Source: a bacterium (GTDB taxonomy: Bacteria; Patescibacteriota; Minisyncoccia; Phycocordibacterales; JAUSHB01). Taken from it: DNA of 64,000 nt. Made by a program: the position numbers and the translations under genes. The stretch spans positions 12,675 to 76,674 of the forward strand of contig JAUSHB010000013.1 of the NCBI GenBank assembly GCA_030648955.1. Direction: 5' to 3'. Numbering within the stretch: position 1 is the first letter of the stretch; each line of letters begins with the position of its first letter. Below, in pieces: positions 11,103 through 34,886 of this stretch. The notes under the pieces are model-generated. The model saw only the letters and a list, made by a program, of their open reading frames with translations. It ran no database searches and was not told the origin of the DNA.

Positions 11103-11534
11103 TTATTTAAGCGGTGTTCCTACGGGAACTTCTTTTGCTGGTTCGACGGTTGTGAAATGTTCCCCTTCTCCAACAGCATAAAGGATCATCCCCTGGCTTT
11201 CGTGTCCTCGAATCACACGTGGCGCAAGATTGGTGAGCACGGGTACTTGTTTCCCCACCAAAACAGACGGGTCAGGATAATGCATTGCGATACCGGAAAG
11301 AATTTGTCGCGGACTTCCTTCTCCGAGGTCAACCGTAAACTTAATGAGCTTATCCGCATCAGGAACTTTCTCCGCGGAAAGAATTTTCCCGATCTTTATT
11401 TTCAGTTTTGCAAAATCTTCAATCGAAACCATCCCAAGGTCTGACCTTGGGGAATTTTTAAGGTCTGCCTGCGCGGTAGACAGGTCAAACCTTTGCTCTT
11501 CAAGTTTTTTATTTTCACCGTCAGTCATGGGCAC
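11103..11534 (-). CDS. tRNA-binding domain protein (Trbp111/CsaA/MetRS C-terminal-like)
   Basis: The sequence IKIGKILSAEKVPDADKLIKFTVDLGEG...RQILSGIA is a tRNA-binding OB fold. Confidence 0.7.
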   Translation of the reverse strand: MPMTDGENKKLEEQRFDLSTAQADLKNSPRSDLGMVSIEDFAKLKIKIGKILSAEKVPDADKLIKFTVDLGEGSPRQILSGIAMHYPDPSVLVGKQVPVLTNLAPRVIRGHESQGMILYAVGEGEHFTTVEPAKEVPVGTPLK

Positions 11535-12541
11535 ATTGTATCATTATTTATTCTCCACGAATACAAAAATTTTTTGATTCCAACAGAGGGATCGTGCGTA
11601 TCCCCGTGAGAGAGGAGCCCGAGGTACGATTCGTACGTCTCCTTCGTTGGGCGTTTCTCTAAACGCCGAAACATCCTGCATTTGGTCGTTGTCCTGAGGA
11701 CCCGATGGTTTGTAAAGTGCACCCAGCCGAGAAAATCAATGCCTGATGCAAATGTCTTTATAAAAACCTTGTCGGGATGGAGAGTGAGCTTGAGTTTTAC
11801 TTCAAGAAATTCGGAAATTTTTGGGATAAGACTTTCAAGATAATTCTTGTCGCCATGCACTACCACAAAATCATCAGCATAGCGAATATAATGCTTCACC
11901 TTGGTCGTATGTTTCATGAACTGATCAAACTCATTCATATAGATATTGACAAGGAGCTGCGACGTAAGGTTGCCAAGCGGTAGACCGATGCCAATTTTGC
12001 CTTCAGTATGAAAACTATCAATAACCTGCCCCAAAAGCCAGAGAATATTTCCGTCTTTGATATGCCGAGCCAAAATATCTTTCAGTATTGCGTGATCTAT
12101 GCTTGCAAAAAATTTTCTGATATCGCACTTCAAAACCCATGCGGTATTCGTATAGTTAGATGAAACTTTCCCGCTATATTCTCTGAATCGGTTGATGGCG
12201 CGGTGCGTACCCTTGCCTAATCTGCAGGAATACGAATCAAAAATAAATTTCCGGTCAAAATAGGTATAAAGGGTGCGGTAAATCGCGTGGTGCACCAACC
12301 GATCACGAACCGTTGCTTTGTGAATATCACGCGGTTTCGGGTCATTGATCTTAAACGCATAATATCCGCCATGTGTGTATATTTTTGCCGCGAGTTCACC
12401 TCGAAGCAGGAACAGATTATCGGCAAAGTTCAATAAAAACTCCGCAACGTCCTTTCGTTTCCGTTTACCGCGCAAAAATTCCTGCCACGAGACAAGCAAA
12501 TTTTCTAGGGAAATGATATCATCATATCCATGGCGCAGCAT
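11525..12541 (-). CDS. Diversity-generating retroelement reverse transcriptase
   Basis: The N-terminus DIISLENLLVSWQEFLRGKR is DGR-RT style. Other RT motifs are DPKPRDIHKATVRDRLVHHAIY, GLPLGNLTSQLLVNIYMNEFD and the active-site YIRYADDFVVV. It is ~339 aa with no maturase or endonuclease domain. The start was set at MLRHGYDD, and the track ORF extends upstream through a (GA)n tract. Confidence 0.85.
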   Translation of the reverse strand: MLRHGYDDIISLENLLVSWQEFLRGKRKRKDVAEFLLNFADNLFLLRGELAAKIYTHGGYYAFKINDPKPRDIHKATVRDRLVHHAIYRTLYTYFDRKFIFDSYSCRLGKGTHRAINRFREYSGKVSSNYTNTAWVLKCDIRKFFASIDHAILKDILARHIKDGNILWLLGQVIDSFHTEGKIGIGLPLGNLTSQLLVNIYMNEFDQFMKHTTKVKHYIRYADDFVVVHGDKNYLESLIPKISEFLEVKLKLTLHPDKVFIKTFASGIDFLGWVHFTNHRVLRTTTKCRMFRRLEKRPTKETYESYLGLLSHGDTHDPSVGIKKFLYSWRINNDTMCP

Positions 12542-12886
12542 TTTCCTCTCTCTCTCTCTCTCTCTCTCGAAAACGCTTCGATCCTTCAGCGCATCAAAGA
12601 GGGATATTTGGTGTGGTTGAAGATTGTCTCGCATATTCCCAAAGGACAACGCTATACGTTAGGCGCTCGTATTGAAAACAAATTTCTTGATCTGCTCGAG
12701 GTTGCACACCAAGCATACTTCATTGAGCGGGAAAAGAAAATGGGGAAAGTCGTGCAGTGCATATTCCTACTCGACACGCTTAAGTTTCTCCTCCATGTCG
12801 GATGGGAAGCAAAACTTATCTCGCACAAACACTACGCCGAAATCGCAGAAAAGCTGGATGAGATCGGCAAAATGCTCGGTGGCTGA
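12530..12886 (+). CDS. avd: Avd-like four-helix-bundle accessory protein of the DGR (IVS-protein family)
   Basis: The motifs GQRYTLGARIENKFLDLLEVAHQAY...KKMGKVVQCIFLLDTLKFLLHVGW...KHYAEIAEKLDEIGKMLGGW match the Avd/23S-IVS protein family. The gene is divergent from the RT and overlaps its start. The true start is uncertain because the ATG at 12530 precedes the (CT)12 tract. Confidence 0.7.
   Translation: MAQHFPLSLSLSLENASILQRIKEGYLVWLKIVSHIPKGQRYTLGARIENKFLDLLEVAHQAYFIEREKKMGKVVQCIFLLDTLKFLLHVGWEAKLISHKHYAEIAEKLDEIGKMLGG
12543..12566. repeat. (CT)12 dinucleotide microsatellite at the RT/avd junction
   Basis: There are 24 bp of perfect CT repeats. On the minus strand they form a GA-rich tract immediately 5' of the RT start codon, and on the plus strand they encode LSLSLSLS in the annotated avd ORF. 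Confidence 0.9.
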
Positions 12887-12949: not shown

Positions 12950-13088
12950 ACTTTCGGGAGCAGAAAACAAACTGGTTGTCGGCATTCCACCTGTTCGACG
13001 GCTTCGCGTTGTTCGCATTAAGCTTGAGTTCCACATCGTCGGCATTCAGATTGAACACATTCGGGTTACCATCACCGGTCAGTATTTG
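12950..13088 (-). repeat. DGR template repeat (TR)
   Basis: It is ~139 bp and ~85% identical to 13403-13541. On the coding (minus) strand every one of ~20 TR/VR differences has A in this copy, which is the adenine-mutagenesis signature. The ORFs drawn over it (12816-13220 minus, 12931-13197 plus) are not genes. Confidence 0.85.
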
Positions 13089-13379: not shown

Positions 13380-15233
13380 CTAAGATTCAGAGGCTTCAAG
13401 TTTCTTGCGGGAGCAGAAAACAAACTGGCTGACGGCATACCACCTGCGCGACGGCCTCGCGCGGTACGCATCAAGCTCGAGTCCCACACCGCCGGCATCC
13501 AGAGAGAACACACTCGGGTAACCATCACTGGTCAGAATTTGCTTCATGGCGATCAGTTTCCAATCCCTGCCCCCATACTGGAGTCGCAGGTACGGTCCGA
13601 TTTCGGCGGGAGCAAGTTCCAGTCCGAGTTTGATCGCTTTGGCGTATATCTCATCCGTCGTGGCGCCCTTAGGAAAATCGAGTTGTGCAACGGTAAATTG
13701 CACTAATTCGTAAGTTTTACTCTCTGTGCTGAATTCCGTTTTGTAGAGAATGTCTTTTCCCCACTCTGACAGATAGATGTTTTTGGCTTTCAGAGATTCT
13801 TCCGCTTTTTCCGGAGAGTTGACCGTAGGGTCGGTTTCCATGTGTCTCATGAATATCTCTTTGTCGGGAAATGATTCATAAAGATGCTTAATGTTCGGAT
13901 ATTGCTTAATGGTTTGGAAAATGGTCGGATTCCATTCGCCAATATACGCTTTTGTGTCATTATTAATCTCCTTCGGCACATGAGCGATCTCCTCTTTCAC
14001 GCATTCAAAGATGACGAGCATGTCTTCCTCCGAATTTCTCCCTTGGCGAAGTTCCTGGATGCGCGGATCGCTCTCATAGCCGAAGCCTTGGATGGGTGAA
14101 TCAATTTCGTAGAGAAAGATAAATTCGTCTTTGGTGAGCGGTTCGTTTTTCTTTGTTTTGTTTTCAATCTGAGTGAGAAGCTTCATGTCTTCGCTTTTCC
14201 TGCGGTACGTGTCCGCCTCACTTCCGAATTCTGCGAGTTTCTCGTCAAGCACTTCCTGCATGAGAGGCTCGACGCTTTGGTGTGGTAAAACGCCTCGTAT
14301 CTGACCGATCTGAGAACCACTCATTTGTATGGCAAGACGGGGATGAGTCGGTTCGCCACTTGCGTCATTGGTATAATAGACATAAAAATCGCCTTGCTTG
14401 ATATAACTGCTAGCTGTCGTCTTACCTTCCACACACCACCCTGTACCCTGACCCTGCATTGATTCAAAAAGGTTCTCTGCGTCCGTATTATTACCCTGTG
14501 CATACTTCATCCACTGTCCGCGAATTTCTTCGCGGTTCTCCATTGAAGCGGCGAGGGACTTTGAGATAAGCTCGGCATAGAGAGCAGGGAACTTTTTTGA
14601 AAATGCTTCTCGAATTTCCGGCTCTTTGAGATTTTTGTTGTCCGCTTTTACTTTTTCGTAAACATCGAGTATTTGCGCAAGCGCTCCCCGATGAATATCC
14701 GGGAATCGTGCCACGGTGGTGCTCGTTCGTTCTTTGAATTTGCCGAGTTCTTTATCAAATTGAGAAAGCTTGGTGATGTTCCGCCAGACGAAATATTTGA
14801 ACCATGTTGGATAGGCAACATCCTCTTCGCTGAGATAATCCGTCCACGCGTCAAGCGAGTGTTTTTGGTCTTCTATCGCCACCTCCATCATCTGCCTGCG
14901 GACATTTTCGGAGATTTCCTCCACGACCTCTCCGCGCTCACGCGCGATGCGCTTTTGAAGCTCAAAGTATGACTCGGGAAAATTCTCACGCTTGATGATG
15001 AGCGCGTCATATATCTTGTCGCGGAACATTTCAAGATTGCGCTCGCGCGTTCGTTCGTCGGGATTGAGAAAGATGTTCTCCAGACGATCCATATACGCTT
15101 CAATCCGCTCCGCAGGGTCGTTGGGTATCTTTTTACCCGTGTGCCGTTCCTCTCGCTCGACAGCATCTTCTACATCGGATGACGTTTGGAGTTCGGGGAG
15201 CTTTTTGTGGAGAAATTCAAAGTCTTCTTTCAT
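13380..15233 (-). CDS. DGR target protein (617 aa, variable C-terminal ligand-binding-type domain, no signal peptide)
   Basis: The VR occupies the last ~45 codons. The N-terminus MKEDFEFLHKKLPELQ has no signal peptide or TM helix. The remaining ~560 aa match nothing I recognise. Confidence 0.8.
   Translation of the reverse strand: MKEDFEFLHKKLPELQTSSDVEDAVEREERHTGKKIPNDPAERIEAYMDRLENIFLNPDERTRERNLEMFRDKIYDALIIKRENFPESYFELQKRIARERGEVVEEISENVRRQMMEVAIEDQKHSLDAWTDYLSEEDVAYPTWFKYFVWRNITKLSQFDKELGKFKERTSTTVARFPDIHRGALAQILDVYEKVKADNKNLKEPEIREAFSKKFPALYAELISKSLAASMENREEIRGQWMKYAQGNNTDAENLFESMQGQGTGWCVEGKTTASSYIKQGDFYVYYTNDASGEPTHPRLAIQMSGSQIGQIRGVLPHQSVEPLMQEVLDEKLAEFGSEADTYRRKSEDMKLLTQIENKTKKNEPLTKDEFIFLYEIDSPIQGFGYESDPRIQELRQGRNSEEDMLVIFECVKEEIAHVPKEINNDTKAYIGEWNPTIFQTIKQYPNIKHLYESFPDKEIFMRHMETDPTVNSPEKAEESLKAKNIYLSEWGKDILYKTEFSTESKTYELVQFTVAQLDFPKGATTDEIYAKAIKLGLELAPAEIGPYLRLQYGGRDWKLIAMKQILTSDGYPSVFSLDAGGVGLELDAYRARPSRRWYAVSQFVFCSRKKLEASES
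13403..13541 (-). repeat. DGR variable repeat (VR) within the 3' end of the target gene
   Basis: It is the counterpart of the TR. It encodes the C-terminus ...ILTSDGYPSVFSLDAGGVGLELDAYRARPSRRWYAVSQFVFCSRKKLEASES, where the TR encodes ...ILTGDGNPNVFNLNADDVELKLNANNAKPSNRWNADNQFVFCSRKSF. Confidence 0.85.
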
Positions 15234-32619: not shown

Positions 32620-33180
32620 ATGAAACGAATCTTCATCATCCACGGCTGGGCAGGAAACAGCAAGAGCGACTGGCTCCCCTGGCTTAAATCAGAACTGGAA
32701 AAGCTCGGGTATAAAGTTTTTGTACCAGATATGCCCGACACGGAAAATCCGGTGATAGGAAAGTGGGTCAATCATTTGAGAGACCTTGTGGAAACGCCCG
32801 ATAAAGATACGTATTTTGTGGGACATAGTATCGGATGTCAGACGATTCTTCGCTACCTCGAAACTGTTTCGACTCCGGTAGGCAAAGCAGTATTCATCGC
32901 GGGATGGTTTGATTTAAAAAACCTTGAGGATGACGAGGCGGAAAAAATTGCTGAACCGTGGATCACAACCCCGATAGATATCGCGAAGGTGCGAAAAGTC
33001 CTTCCCTCTTCCACGGTTATCATTTCCGACAACGACCCGTTTGGCACATTTGAGGAAAATAAAAAGAAATTCGTCGAGCTTGGTTCTAAGATTATTATCC
33101 TCCACAATGCAGGACATATTGATAAAGAAAGTAGCTACACAAAACTTCCGGAAGCGTTGGAGGAGTTTAAAAAGTTGTAA
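32620..33180 (+). CDS. RBBP9/YdeN-family serine hydrolase (alpha/beta fold)
   Basis: It has MKRIFIIHGWAGNSKSDW ... the nucleophile elbow GHSIGC ... and HNAGHI. Confidence 0.7.
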   Translation: MKRIFIIHGWAGNSKSDWLPWLKSELEKLGYKVFVPDMPDTENPVIGKWVNHLRDLVETPDKDTYFVGHSIGCQTILRYLETVSTPVGKAVFIAGWFDLKNLEDDEAEKIAEPWITTPIDIAKVRKVLPSSTVIISDNDPFGTFEENKKKFVELGSKIIILHNAGHIDKESSYTKLPEALEEFKKL

Positions 33181-33184
33181 TTTT

Positions 33185-33694
33185 ATGCTCACTCTCTACA
33201 ACGTACTATCTTCCGATGGATTCATCGCCGCAAAAGACGGGGGTGAGGATTTTATTCCCGACGAGGTGTGGGGTGATTTCTTAGAGCTGTGCACAAAATA
33301 TGGCGCTCTCATTATGGGTAAGAATGCTTATGGCGCGATACAATCCTTTGACAAAGAACTTGTGGAGCCGTTTGAGAATTTAAGTATTGAAAAAATAGTA
33401 GTAACAAGGGATAAAAATTTAAAACCTAAAAGGGGGTATGCGGTGATTAATTCTTTGCGCGAAGCGGCGACACTCCACCCCAATATGCTCCTCTGCAGCG
33501 GTCCCAAGCTCAATACGGCATTTCTAAAAGAAAAACTTATTGATAGAATTATTTTAAATAAACTTCCTATTGCTATTGGCGAAGGAATCTCTCAATTTGA
33601 AGAAGGGGTGCATCCTCAACTGATCCCCCAGTCCGAATTGGATATAAATAAAGGCAACGGCAGAACATTGGTTTTTTACAAAGTTATGTATTAA
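33185..33694 (+). CDS. Dihydrofolate-reductase-like protein (RibD C-terminal domain family)
   Basis: It has MLTLYNVLSSDGFIAAKDGGEDFIPDEVW ... ALIMGKNAY... and the start was taken at the internal Met of track ORF 33041-33694. Confidence 0.65.
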   Translation: MLTLYNVLSSDGFIAAKDGGEDFIPDEVWGDFLELCTKYGALIMGKNAYGAIQSFDKELVEPFENLSIEKIVVTRDKNLKPKRGYAVINSLREAATLHPNMLLCSGPKLNTAFLKEKLIDRIILNKLPIAIGEGISQFEEGVHPQLIPQSELDINKGNGRTLVFYKVMY

Positions 33695-33699
33695 AAATC

Positions 33700-34135
33700 A
33701 CAATCGCCCCAACGGGTTTTTGGTTTTTACCCCAGTACCAATTTTGTGAGTTGCGTACTATTGTTTGTGGTAATGCTAAGTAAAATTTATTTTTCAATAA
33801 AGCAATGCTTCGCCCGACGAGGGTTGGGCTATTCGCCCGCGCATTGCTTATGTAATTCAAAAGCAAAATTGATACGGGGTCCTCAAAAATCATAGTCGCC
33901 TAAACGGCTCCTTGATTTTTGGGACTTATCCACACCCCCCCCCACTTGCACTTGTCTTGCAGAAAGATATACTGGCTTCAGACAAGTGATGGACATTCGT
34001 CAAAAAAGTATTAGCCACTTTATGGCATAAACAAAAACCCCGACGAAATCCCCATTTCACACAGCACCTTATCCTCAGTGATCTTTTGATCACAACAACC
34101 TATTCAGAATAAAGTCCACCTCGGTGGGCTTTTTT
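33700..34135 (+). ncRNA. Candidate structured non-coding RNA (~430 nt), identity unknown
   Basis: The region has no credible ORF on either strand. It contains the hairpin GCAATGCTTCGCCCGACGAGGGTTGGGCTATTCGCCCGCGCATTGC and a C9 run, and ends in the intrinsic terminator GTCCACCTCGGTGGGCTTTTTT at 34113-34135. Confidence 0.3.
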
Positions 34136-34169: not shown

Positions 34170-34886
34170 CTAAATACTCAACACAAACTTCTCAAGCGCC
34201 ATCCCAAGTTCATCCCCTCCTCGACGCGCTTCGTGATAGATGGAGACTAAGCGCGATGAAAGATTTTTTAATTCTTCTTCGGTGAAGTTTTTTGCAAACG
34301 AAAGTGATTTTCTGAATACAAATGGATTGAGCCCCGCCTCTCCGGCGGTTTTTGAGGACACAGCAAGAATCATGGATTTCACCTGCCAGAAAAGCATCCC
34401 ATGAATTTCCTCTGCCACCCCTCCCGCATCAAAAGATTTTTGAAGAAGAACCCACGCGTCTTTCTTACTTCTCCTCCCAAGCGCGTCACTCAATGCAAAG
34501 CGATCAAACTCAATTTTTTTTGCTATTTTTTCTACCGTAGACTCTTGTGTGGTTTCCGTTTTTTTTGCAACTCGTTCTGCAGTGACTTTAGTGAGTTTCC
34601 CCTCAATGATGACAAAAATATTGGGGGAGTCTTTCATCTCTTTGAGCTTCTCAAGAACAGTCCCCTCCGCATCTATATCTTGAAGAAGAGAGTCGAGAAC
34701 AATAACACTCCTCCCTCCGAATAGTCCGCGTGATGCCAAAAGTTCTCCAAATTTCTCCTCACTCCACGATTCCGCGTTCATTTCAAACATAGGCGCATCG
34801 GGATTTTTTGCAAAAAAACCATCCAGAAACTCATGGAATTTTTCCCGTACTCTGGCGCTATTTTCTCCGTAGAAAAAATGGATCAT
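34170..34886 (-). CDS. holA: DNA polymerase III delta subunit
   Basis: It has MIHFFYGENSARVREKF...GRSVIVLD... and HolA-like helical C-terminal domains. Confidence 0.65.
   Translation of the reverse strand: MIHFFYGENSARVREKFHEFLDGFFAKNPDAPMFEMNAESWSEEKFGELLASRGLFGGRSVIVLDSLLQDIDAEGTVLEKLKEMKDSPNIFVIIEGKLTKVTAERVAKKTETTQESTVEKIAKKIEFDRFALSDALGRRSKKDAWVLLQKSFDAGGVAEEIHGMLFWQVKSMILAVSSKTAGEAGLNPFVFRKSLSFAKNFTEEELKNLSSRLVSIYHEARRGGDELGMALEKFVLSI

What the first reader, a model, noticed from the sequence alone, without database searches (positions are those of the whole stretch)
12530..12570. (CT)12 microsatellite exactly at the divergent RT/avd junction, a possible slipped-strand phase switch for DGR activity
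A perfect 24-bp CT repeat lies 1 nt upstream of the RT start codon on the minus strand, where it forms a purine-rich GAGAGAGG-AAA-ATG ribosome-binding context. It also lies inside codons 5-12 of the avd ORF if avd starts at the ATG at 12530. Gain or loss of a CT unit would frameshift avd and alter RBS spacing for the RT. Dinucleotide SSRs of this length are rare by chance in a ~40% GC genome, and their usual role in bacteria is phase variation. This would put DGR mutagenesis under stochastic ON/OFF control.
Basis: partly seen in the sequence, partly recalled or inferred. Interest (0 to 1): 0.7.

Follow-up and report, generated by a model that had tools for sequence, protein, structure and literature searches.

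The report
Slippery repeat gating a DGR's Avd
A 23-base CT repeat sits between the start codon and the folded body of the helper protein (Avd) of a diversity-generating retroelement; the same spot carries a length-unstable repeat in most related elements of tiny uncultured bacteria, so it very likely works as a heritable on/off switch for this targeted mutation machine.

Summary
The repeat is real but slightly mis-described. It is (CT)11.5, 23 nt, at 12546-12568, and is the only dinucleotide repeat in 64 kb. It lies in a confirmed DGR with RT, Avd, TR/VR (21 of 22 mismatches at TR adenines) and a target gene.

It is not a chance microsatellite. In 73 of 80 related Patescibacteria loci with the same divergent avd/RT layout, a (GA)n or poly-G tract (RT strand) sits at this junction. 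Only 3 such tracts occur elsewhere in 597 kb.

Tract length is the only or almost the only difference between otherwise identical contigs:
- C9/C10/C11 over 3324 nt with 0 mismatches.
- (GA) tracts of 15/17/19 nt, 32/34 nt and 29/37 nt.

The changes are never frame-preserving. About half of tract-bearing loci lack an in-frame avd start. All 7 tract-less relatives read in frame from the homologous ATG (p=0.001).

In the window, Avd is in frame from ATG 12530. Losing one unit shifts it to ATG 12513, and gaining one unit leaves no start. The RT has its own ATG 4 nt after the tract, so the RBS-spacing idea fails.

A phase switch on Avd, and hence on DGR activity, is the best explanation (~0.6). 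The expression effect is untested. I found no prior report.

The parts
12546..12568 (.). Simple-sequence tract: (CT)11C on the + (avd) strand, (GA)11G on the - (RT) strand
   Evidence: It is the unique dinucleotide SSR in the window, with 0 expected by shuffling.
12530..12886 (+). avd (118 aa, four-helix-bundle accessory protein). The leader M1-N15 includes the tract-encoded (LS)n.
   Evidence: PF22296, E=5e-13; in the AF2 model, residues 1-13 are disordered and helix 1 spans residues 18-33. NCBI MDO8572742.1 uses the same start.
12530..12532 (+). ATG1, the avd start codon, in frame with the Avd body at (CT)11.5. It is the reverse complement of RT codon 4 (His, CAT).
   Evidence: The homologous ATG starts avd in frame in tract-less relatives: 6 of the 7 tract-less loci use it, while L051 uses an intergenic ATG.
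12513..12515 (+). ATG2, an alternative upstream ATG in another frame. It comes into frame with Avd after loss of one CT unit.
11525..12541 (-). DGR reverse transcriptase (338 aa). Its ATG lies 4 nt after the tract, in the context GAGAGG-AAA-ATG.
   Evidence: RVT_1; the best PDB hit is Bordetella bRT 8ub7 (E=4.9e-37), and the N-terminus aligns to bRT residue 6. P0001 is 100% identical.
12632..12634 (-). Upstream ATG on the RT strand (reverse complement of the avd His35 codon). It is in frame with the RT through the tract as (ER)n only at 11.5 units, or 11.5 plus or minus 3 units.
   Evidence: In some relatives this kind of upstream start is the only canonical RT start.
12951..13088 (-). Template repeat (TR)
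13404..13541 (-). Variable repeat (VR) at the 3' end of the target gene
   Evidence: 22 mismatches, 21 at TR adenines and 1 G>A.
13380..15233 (-). DGR target gene (617 aa, no Pfam hit)
   Evidence: An identical protein is found on Logan contig L001.

Best explanation
The tract is a conserved contingency repeat built into the 5' coding leader of avd, in a clade of Patescibacteria (CPR) DGRs whose avd and RT genes are divergent and overlap at their starts.

Shown:
- The only canonical start codons upstream of Avd helix 1 lie on the far side of the tract, inside the first RT codons on the opposite strand.
- The tract encodes a disordered (Leu-Ser)n linker, or Pro-Pro-Pro in poly-C relatives.
- The tract changes length between otherwise identical genomes in steps that are never multiples of 3 nt.
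- In the window, the present (CT)11.5 allele puts ATG 12530 in frame. Losing one unit puts ATG 12513 in frame. Gaining one unit leaves no start.

Inferred:
- Slipped-strand mispairing during replication makes these changes.
- Out-of-frame alleles make no full-length Avd. From Bordetella work, Avd is needed by the DGR RT for cDNA synthesis and mutagenic homing, so the DGR would be switched off heritably but reversibly in part of the population.
- In many relatives the RT's only canonical start also lies beyond the tract, so there both genes would be gated together. In this window the RT has its own ATG just after the tract and is probably frame-independent.
For: The element is a DGR.

The tract is conserved at this junction.
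- 73 of 80 GTDB loci have (GA) of at least 5 units or G of at least 8 within 150 nt upstream of the RT, always purine on the RT strand and directly 5' of the avd helix-1 codons.
- Only 3 such tracts occur elsewhere in 597 kb, a roughly 1000-fold difference in density.
- 58 distant phage-type DGR RT loci have none.
- The closest Avd relative (87% identity, L100) carries C11 instead of (CT)n at the same place. The property conserved is therefore a slippery homopyrimidine run, not a particular sequence.

The tract is hypermutable.
- L091/L092/L093 differ over 3324 nt by 0 mismatches and one gap, C10/C11/C9.
- L129/L167/L193 have 19/17/15-nt tracts with 0-3 mismatches over 1.4-1.9 kb.
- L191/L206 have 34/32 nt with 4 mismatches in 4155 nt, and L152/L181 have 29/37 nt.
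- None of these changes preserves the frame.

The tract lies in coding sequence.
- The AF2 model has residues 1-13 disordered and helix 1 at residues 18-33.
- The Pfam match begins at residue 20, profile position 5.
- There is no canonical start between the tract and helix 1 in the window or in most class A loci.
- All 7 relatives without a tract read avd in frame from an upstream ATG, and in 6 of them this is the ATG homologous to 12530. By contrast 43 of 119 unique (GA)n alleles do (Fisher p=0.0012).
- L079 encodes the same PPP with interrupted CCG codons, in frame.

ON and OFF alleles coexist within strains. In each polymorphic set at least one allele is in frame and others are not.

Window states were computed.

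The window's own sample gives an indirect sign. Logan contigs L001 and L002 both end with the whole 23-nt tract plus 8 nt, which is one 31-mer. This is the signature of a de Bruijn branch caused by a longer allele (k=31 per PMC12424806).
Against: - No expression data exist. The link from frame to Avd level and DGR activity is inferred.
- The fraction of in-frame alleles among tract-bearing loci (36-53%) is about what random frames would give, so the data alone do not show selection on frame.
- In class A loci a near-universal TTG (Leu27), preceded by an SD-like AAAGAGGGATAT, could start a shorter Avd independent of the tract. Gene callers pick it in out-of-frame loci.
- Some class B loci have a TTG right after the tract.
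- The strict strand asymmetry (purines always on the RT strand in about 190 loci) is not explained by slippage alone and hints at an additional or different role.
- Two strains sampled 4 and 2 times showed no length variation.
- The window's Avd also carries a TGA at a conserved Trp and lacks the basic C-tail, so this particular copy may be impaired regardless of the tract.
Confidence: 0.6

Rival explanations
1. Homopurine/homopyrimidine structural element. The tract acts as DNA or RNA rather than as codons. It could form H-DNA or a stable R-loop, or act as a polypurine RNA segment in the RT-sense transcript. In that role it would insulate or couple the two head-to-head, antisense-overlapping transcription units, or serve the retroelement's RNA. 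Length variation would be a side effect.
For: The strand asymmetry is strict. G or GA is always on the RT-sense strand in all loci examined, and (GA)n and poly-G are interchangeable even between close relatives. The tract lies on the path of any transcript running TR -> antisense avd -> RT.
Against: - It does not explain why tract-less relatives keep an in-frame ATG-to-helix-1 ORF (7/7).
- It does not explain why L079 keeps PPP with non-slippery codons.
- The position is fixed relative to the avd body but variable (4-35 nt) relative to the RT start.
- There is no Rfam family at the locus.
- No test of structure was possible.
Confidence: 0.15
2. Isoform switch rather than on/off. A shorter Avd is always made from the conserved TTG (Leu27) with its SD-like AAAGAGGG. 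The tract only decides whether a longer form with the complete helix 1 and the leader is also made.
For: Prodigal-108-aa Avd proteins from it in out-of-frame loci.
Against: - A start at Leu27 removes 9 of the 16 residues of predicted helix 1 and 11 of 107 Pfam positions.
- Many class B and tract-less loci have no start codon at that position.
- Residues 16-26 are conserved as protein.
- The TTG may be held by antisense constraints, since it pairs with CAA on the other strand.
Confidence: 0.1
3. Purine-rich ribosome-binding or translation-enhancer tract for the RT.
For: In the window the tract ends GAGG-AAA-ATG. About a dozen relatives have an ATG 1-9 nt after the tract.
Against: - Unit number does not change the SD-to-ATG spacing.
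- Only 42 of 114 class A alleles have any canonical RT start downstream of the tract.
- In class B the poly-G ends 9-21 nt before the ATG.
- An SD needs 4-6 nt, not 23-43 nt, and need not be hypervariable.
Confidence: 0.07
4. Transcriptional or translational slippage on the tract restores frame in a fraction of messages. Expression would then be constitutively low rather than heritably switched.
For: Long homopolymers are known slippage sites for RNA polymerase (general knowledge). About half of natural loci are out of frame yet keep intact avd bodies.
Against: RNA polymerase slippage is best documented for A/T runs, and it is not established for dinucleotide (CT)n during elongation. Genomic length polymorphism is directly observed, so DNA-level switching exists in any case.
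Confidence: 0.05
5. Chance microsatellite or assembly artefact with no function.
For: None beyond the fact that single SSRs can arise by chance. Two contigs (L016, L053) begin with implausibly long C48 and G26 runs that may be artefacts.
Against: - 0 are expected by shuffling.
- 73 of 80 independent assemblies carry a tract at the same site, against 3 elsewhere.
- The same tract appears in the NCBI MAG and in Logan contigs.
Confidence: 0.01

Closest known systems
Helicobacter pylori outer-membrane protein genes with 5' CT dinucleotide repeats (oipA/hopH, sabA, hopZ). From my own knowledge, not tested here.
   Same: A perfect (CT)n tract lies a few codons after the start codon, in a structurally tolerant leader. 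One-unit slippage shifts the frame and switches the protein on or off. Poly-C tracts are used interchangeably in the same genomes.
   Different: In H. pylori the switched gene is a surface adhesin. Here it is the accessory factor of a retroelement that itself mutates another gene. Here the tract is also shared with a second, divergent gene on the other strand.
Poly-G/C contingency loci of Neisseria, Haemophilus and Campylobacter, including phase-variable DNA methyltransferases ('phasevarions'). From my own knowledge.
   Same: Homopolymeric G/C tracts of 8-12 nt in 5' coding regions, with length polymorphism between near-identical strains. In phasevarions the switched gene is a regulator with downstream genome-wide effects.
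   Different: The host is a Patescibacteria/CPR bacterium, for which my searches found no paper on phase variation. The controlled function is targeted hypermutation, not surface structure or methylation.
Haemophilus influenzae hifA/hifB fimbrial switch: (TA)n in overlapping divergent promoters. From my own knowledge.
   Same: A dinucleotide SSR placed exactly between two divergently oriented genes, so that one tract affects both.
   Different: In hif the tract is a promoter spacer between the -35 and -10 elements. Here no promoter-like hexamers flank the tract, and the tract lies inside open reading frames on both strands.
Canonical DGRs (Bordetella phage BPP-1 mtd-avd-TR-brt; bRT-Avd structures 8ub7 and related entries)
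   Same: An RT homologous to bRT, an Avd four-helix bundle, TR/VR with adenine-specific changes, and VR at the 3' end of the target gene.
   Different: avd is inverted relative to target, TR and RT, and overlaps the RT start head-to-head. An SSR is built into the junction. 58 phage-type DGR RT loci checked have no such tract.

Membership tests
Diversity-generating retroelement (DGR) | Reverse transcriptase of the DGR type | tested here: met
   RVT_1, E=3e-20; the best solved relative is Bordetella bRT 8ub7, E=4.9e-37, aligned from the N-terminus.
Diversity-generating retroelement (DGR) | TR/VR near-repeat whose differences fall at adenines of the TR | tested here: met
   a 138-nt repeat with 22 mismatches, 21 at TR adenines (A>G 11, A>T 6, A>C 4) and 1 G>A.
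Diversity-generating retroelement (DGR) | Avd-type accessory protein next to the RT | tested here: met
   PF22296 bAvd, E=5e-13; four helices, pLDDT 85.7.
Diversity-generating retroelement (DGR) | VR at the 3' end of a target ORF | tested here: met
   VR 13404-13541 lies inside ORF 15233..13380, ending 8 codons before the stop.
Diversity-generating retroelement (DGR) | IMH/IMH* and downstream hairpin; actual mutagenic homing | not tested
   The 3' ends of TR and VR are identical (CAGTTTGTTTTCTGCTCCCG) and then diverge. No further analysis was done, and activity cannot be tested here.
SSR contingency locus (phase variation by slipped-strand mispairing) | Perfect repeat tract long enough to slip | tested here: met
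   11.5 CT units. Relatives carry 5-21 GA units or G8-G12.
SSR contingency locus (phase variation by slipped-strand mispairing) | Tract lies between the start codon and the functional body of the gene (or in its promoter), so unit changes alter expression | tested here: met
   ATG 12530 lies 16 nt 5' of the tract and helix 1 starts at residue 18, with no other canonical start between them. All 7 tract-less relatives read avd in frame from an upstream ATG, and in 6 of them it is the homologous ATG. Frame states were computed.
SSR contingency locus (phase variation by slipped-strand mispairing) | Tract-length polymorphism between otherwise identical sequences | tested here: met
   Shown in relatives: C9/C10/C11 with 0 mismatches in 3324 nt, and GA tracts of 15/17/19, 32/34 and 29/37 nt. 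For the window's own strain the evidence is only indirect: Logan contigs break at tract plus 8 nt.
SSR contingency locus (phase variation by slipped-strand mispairing) | Both in-frame and out-of-frame alleles occur in natural populations with the gene body intact | tested here: met
   43 in-frame and 76 out-of-frame among 119 unique class A alleles. In GTDB representatives the split is 34/30. avd bodies align full-length in both groups.
SSR contingency locus (phase variation by slipped-strand mispairing) | Measured reversible switching of protein expression at high frequency | not testable with these tools
   This needs reads, reporters or culture, and the organism is an uncultured MAG.
Promoter-spacer SSR between divergent promoters (hifA/hifB type) | Tract lies between the -35 and -10 hexamers of one or both promoters | tested here: inconclusive
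   no sigma-70-like site spans the tract. There are 4 sites in 2.1 kb, against 3.1 expected. Promoter rules for Patescibacteria are uncertain.

The most novel reading that the evidence does not exclude
A single hypermutable tract is a two-way frameshift switch for a whole clade of CPR DGRs. Each gene's start codon is the reverse complement of a conserved His codon in the other gene (avd ATG = RT His4 codon; upstream RT ATG = avd His35 codon), and the two starts lie on opposite sides of the tract.

One slippage event therefore sets the frame of Avd and, in loci that lack a tract-proximal RT start, of the RT as well. Targeted hypermutation is thereby placed under stochastic, heritable control: a mutable switch on a mutator.

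This would explain why many DGRs look silent in metagenomes, and it predicts that VR diversification tracks the tract state.
Probability: 0.35. Interest if true: 0.9.

Novelty: new variant of a known kind. Interest (0 to 1): 0.8.

Why it matters
How DGR activity is regulated is largely unknown, and uncontrolled mutagenesis of a working receptor is costly. A built-in contingency repeat would give cells a simple way to lock in a good variant (OFF) while keeping a subpopulation that still diversifies (ON).

The hypothesis is directly testable from existing metagenomes. Tract length can be read from the same reads that report VR heterogeneity.

It would also be the first case I could find of SSR phase variation in Patescibacteria/CPR, and of an SSR controlling a retroelement. 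No paper in the searchable library links DGRs to SSRs or phase switching.

There is a practical consequence. Gene callers give Avd and RT inconsistent starts and lengths at these loci (101-141 aa for Avd; 286-380 aa for RT), and assemblies break there.

Tried and rejected
- Exact look-ups of the window's Avd and RT returned nothing, although both proteins are in the collection as P0121 and P0001. The target and DedA look-ups worked and gave the Logan contigs.
- The look-up of RT P0024 (11 contigs) was uninformative by construction. That RT is called from a TTG upstream of the tract, so identical protein forces identical tract length.
- Avd P0221 (4 contigs, (CT)10) and P0230 (2 contigs, C10) showed no length variation.
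- No close orthologue of the window's own locus exists in the databases. The next RT is 73% identical or less, and the next Avd is 87% identical on a 1.9-kb contig. Repeat-length comparison at the strictly orthologous locus was therefore impossible.
- The promoter/terminator scan around the junction was not above shuffled expectation.
- Rfam found only tRNAs in the window.
- A PDB sequence search with Avd gave no meaningful hit.
- Paul et al. 2017 (CPR DGRs) is not held in the library, so I could not check whether it mentions the tract.
- I rejected chance, on shuffles and conservation.
- I rejected an RBS-spacing change for the RT, because the tract's RT-proximal end is fixed.
- I rejected an obligatory N-terminal (ER)n extension of the RT in this window, because the ATG at 12541 matches the bRT N-terminus.
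Full report
**Observation**

The sequence at 12540-12569 reads attttcc(tc)11g. Tandem Repeats Finder reports a perfect period-2 array at 12546-12568 with 11.5 copies. The tract is therefore 23 nt, not 24, and lies 3 nt to the right of the stated coordinates.

A 12-nt CT run is expected 0.00 times in 100 dinucleotide-preserving shuffles. A regex scan shows it is the only dinucleotide SSR of at least 5 units in the 64-kb window, which has 41.8% GC.

On the minus strand the tract is followed by G-AAA-ATG, so it ends 4 nt before the RT start. In the avd frame from ATG 12530 it covers codons 6-13.

**Context: a bona fide DGR with an inverted avd**

- ORF 12541..11525 (-) is a reverse transcriptase (RVT_1, E=3e-20). 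Its best solved relative is the Bordetella DGR RT (8ub7, E=4.9e-37). The alignment starts at bRT residue 6 opposite the window's Arg3, so ATG 12541 gives the same N-terminus as bRT.
- ORF 12530..12886 (+) is Avd (PF22296, E=5e-13).
- A 138-nt repeat (12951-13088 and 13404-13541) read on the minus strand has 22 differences. Of these, 21 are at TR adenines and one is G>A.
- The VR ends 8 codons before the stop of a 617-aa target ORF.

Target, TR and RT are thus on the minus strand, and avd is on the plus strand. The avd and RT start codons overlap head-to-head by 12 nt. NCBI annotates exactly these starts (MDO8572741.1 and MDO8572742.1).

**The tract is a conserved feature of a DGR clade**

A scan of one genome per GTDB species with the RT returned 80 loci, nearly all Patescibacteria MAGs, with RT identity of 59-73%. 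In 74 of them avd is adjacent and divergent, as in the window.

In 73 of the 80, a simple-sequence tract lies within 150 nt upstream of the RT:
- 32 have (GA)n of 10-43 nt (median 22.5).
- 41 have poly-G of 8-26 nt (median 10).

Only three comparable tracts occur anywhere else in the 597 kb fetched. That is about 5.9 per kb at the junction against 0.005 per kb elsewhere.

The tract is always purine on the RT strand. It always abuts the codons for the start of Avd helix 1 (..ASILQRIKEGYL, or ..LLPVLQKIK.aY in the poly-C class). Its distance to the RT start varies.

The closest Avd relative of the window (87% identity, Logan contig L100) carries C11 where the window has (CT)11.5, and that contig begins 14 nt before the tract.

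As a control, 58 distant DGR-type RT loci from IMG/VR (29-38% identity) have no tract within 200 nt upstream of the RT.

**The tract is hypermutable**

Avd P0234 is called from a TTG downstream of the tract, so its sequence does not depend on tract length. It occurs on 23 contigs from many samples.
- L091, L092 and L093 are identical over 3324 nt (0 mismatches) except for one gap: C10, C11 and C9.
- Counting collapsed duplicates, there are about 16 C10, 4 C9 and 2 C11 contigs.

Among groups with 100% identical 200-nt flanks on both sides, three are polymorphic:
- L129/L167/L193 have 19/17/15-nt tracts, with 0-3 mismatches over 1.4-1.9 kb.
- L191/L206 have 34/32 nt, with 4 mismatches in 4155 nt.
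- L152/L181 have 29/37 nt.

All observed changes (±1 nt; ±1, ±2 or ±4 dinucleotide units) shift the frame, and none preserves it.

For the window's own population there is only indirect evidence. Two Logan contigs from SRR13727527 carry the window's target gene and DedA gene. Each ends with the complete 23-nt tract plus exactly 8 nt of unique flank, which is one 31-mer. Logan graphs use k=31 and drop k-mers seen once (PMC12424806). A symmetric stop at that k-mer is what a branch caused by a longer allele would produce. Sequencing stutter cannot be excluded.

**The tract lies in the avd coding leader**

- An AlphaFold2 model of the window's Avd (44-sequence alignment, pLDDT 85.7) has residues 1-13 disordered and helix 1 at residues 18-33.
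- The Pfam match starts at residue 20, profile position 5.
- Between the tract and helix 1 there is no ATG, GTG or TTG in the window or in most class A loci. The only canonical starts lie beyond the tract.
- The nearest one, ATG 12530, is the reverse complement of the RT's His4 codon. A second ATG (12513) lies 17 nt further on, in another frame.
- Symmetrically, an ATG on the RT strand 66 nt before the tract (12634) is the reverse complement of the avd His35 codon. When avd is in frame with ATG1, the RT body is in frame with that upstream ATG, reading (ER)n through the tract.

Relatives without a tract are decisive for the start codon. In L019, L051 and L079 (GTDB) and L227, L228, L230 and L231 (IMG/VR), avd reads in frame from an upstream ATG straight into helix 1. 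In six of the seven this is the homologous ATG, and L051 uses an intergenic ATG instead. L079 encodes the PPP of the poly-C class with interrupted CCG codons. That makes 7 of 7 in frame, against 43 of 119 unique class A alleles (Fisher p=0.0012).

In GTDB representatives, long tracts give 34 in-frame and 30 out-of-frame loci. Short or absent tracts, including the four IMG/VR loci, give 13 and 2 (p=0.02). Out-of-frame loci keep full-length, conserved avd bodies, so they are not decaying pseudogenes.

**States in the window**

- (CT)11.5, the assembled allele: Avd is in frame from ATG 12530 (MAQHFP(LS)3L-ENASILQRIKEGY...).
- Minus one unit (or plus two): in frame from ATG 12513, with a longer leader.
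- Plus one unit (or minus two): neither start is in frame, and the ATG1 frame stops after about 30 codons.

The RT keeps its own ATG 4 nt after the tract in every state.

In relatives the RT situation differs. Among 114 class A alleles with RT information:
- 42 have a canonical start downstream of the tract.
- 43 have one only upstream, reading through the tract.
- 29 have none in frame.

In the poly-C strain, gene calls for the RT change from 337 aa (C10) to 314 aa (C9, C11), while avd is in frame only at C9. In part of the clade the tract therefore sets the frame of both genes.

**Mechanism proposed**

Slipped-strand mispairing changes the tract length. This places the avd start codon in or out of frame with the four-helix bundle. 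Without full-length Avd, the RT cannot carry out mutagenic homing (established for Bordetella bRT-Avd; not tested here), so diversification of the target's VR is switched off heritably and reversibly.

The following are shown:
- the anatomy of the locus;
- conservation of the tract;
- its hypermutability;
- its coding position;
- the coexistence of ON and OFF alleles.

The following are inferred:
- the replication-slippage origin of the length changes;
- the effect on Avd level;
- the effect on DGR activity.

**Caveats and rivals**

- The share of in-frame alleles among tract-bearing loci is close to random expectation, so selection on frame is not demonstrated.
- Class A loci carry a near-invariant TTG (Leu27) behind an SD-like AAAGAGGG that could yield a truncated Avd independent of the tract. 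This start would remove more than half of helix 1 and is absent in many class B and tract-less loci.
- The invariable purine bias on the RT strand is unexplained by slippage. It leaves room for a DNA or RNA structural role (H-DNA, R-loop, or a polypurine segment of a TR-antisense-avd-RT transcript), perhaps in addition to the switch.
- Promoter-like sites around the junction are not above chance, and Rfam finds nothing there.
- The window's Avd also ends at a TGA where homologues have a conserved Trp followed by a basic tail. The downstream frame still reads KKNLDNPEKKNRT, so this copy may be partly impaired.

**Comparison with known systems and novelty**

The tract works like the 5' CT-repeat and poly-C contingency genes of Helicobacter, Neisseria, Haemophilus and Campylobacter. 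It recalls the hifA/hifB (TA)n switch in sitting between divergent genes. These comparisons rest on my own knowledge.

It differs from them in three ways:
- It lies in open reading frames on both strands.
- It occurs in Patescibacteria.
- It gates a targeted hypermutation system.

Full-text searches combining DGR with phase variation, slipped-strand, simple sequence repeat, contingency or homopolymeric, and Patescibacteria with phase-variable, found no report of such a tract. Wu et al. 2018 (PMC5758913) does not mention it. Paul et al. 2017 could not be read.

I rate the finding a new variant of a known kind, with interest 0.8.

Noticed in passing
window 12884-12886: avd ends at TGA exactly where homologues have a near-invariant Trp followed by a basic tail (W-KKSLxNPEKKNRxL). 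The downstream frame still reads KKNLDNPEKKNRT, so this looks like a recent TGG>TGA nonsense change that removes about 16 residues. The same base is present in Logan contig L001.
   Followed up: partly
window 33926-33943: A perfect DnaA-box-like TTATCCACA is immediately followed by a C9 run, the only homopolymer of at least 9 nt in the window. It lies in a 475-nt gap between the convergent ORFs 33041..33694 (+) and 34170..34886 (-). DnaA-box-like 9-mers are not clearly enriched window-wide (25 found against 16.6 expected).
   Followed up: partly
junction tracts in L003-L226: The strand asymmetry is strict. The tract is always G or GA on the RT-sense strand (C or CT in avd sense) in about 190 loci, and never the reverse or any other motif. 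Slippage alone does not explain this.
   Followed up: no
window 12530-12541 and 12632-12634; same positions in relatives: The start-codon geometry is reciprocal. The avd ATG is the reverse complement of the RT His4 codon, and the upstream RT-strand ATG is the reverse complement of the avd His35 codon. One tract therefore links both frames.
   Followed up: yes
L016 1-48; L053 1-26; L030, L065, L080, L100 contig ends: Several independent assemblies break at or within a few nt of the junction tract. Two contigs start with very long runs (C48, G26), which may be assembly or poly-G sequencing artefacts or unusually long alleles.
   Followed up: no
window 13053 region (TR) against the VR: There is one non-adenine TR/VR difference (TR G, VR A, in ACCGGTG against ACCAGTG) among the 22 mismatches.
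   Followed up: no
L091-L093 (3324 nt each): Contigs that differ in tract state (C9, C10, C11) are otherwise identical, including the 3' part of the adjacent 638-aa ORF (presumed DGR target, not checked for a VR). No VR diversification is therefore visible in these consensus sequences.
   Followed up: no
class A junctions, e.g. window 12593-12610: The motif ATCAAAGAGGGATAT-TTG (IKEGY-L) is almost invariant at the nucleotide level across more than 120 metagenome contigs. It doubles as an SD-like GAGGG plus a TTG, which gene callers use as the avd start in out-of-frame loci.
   Followed up: partly
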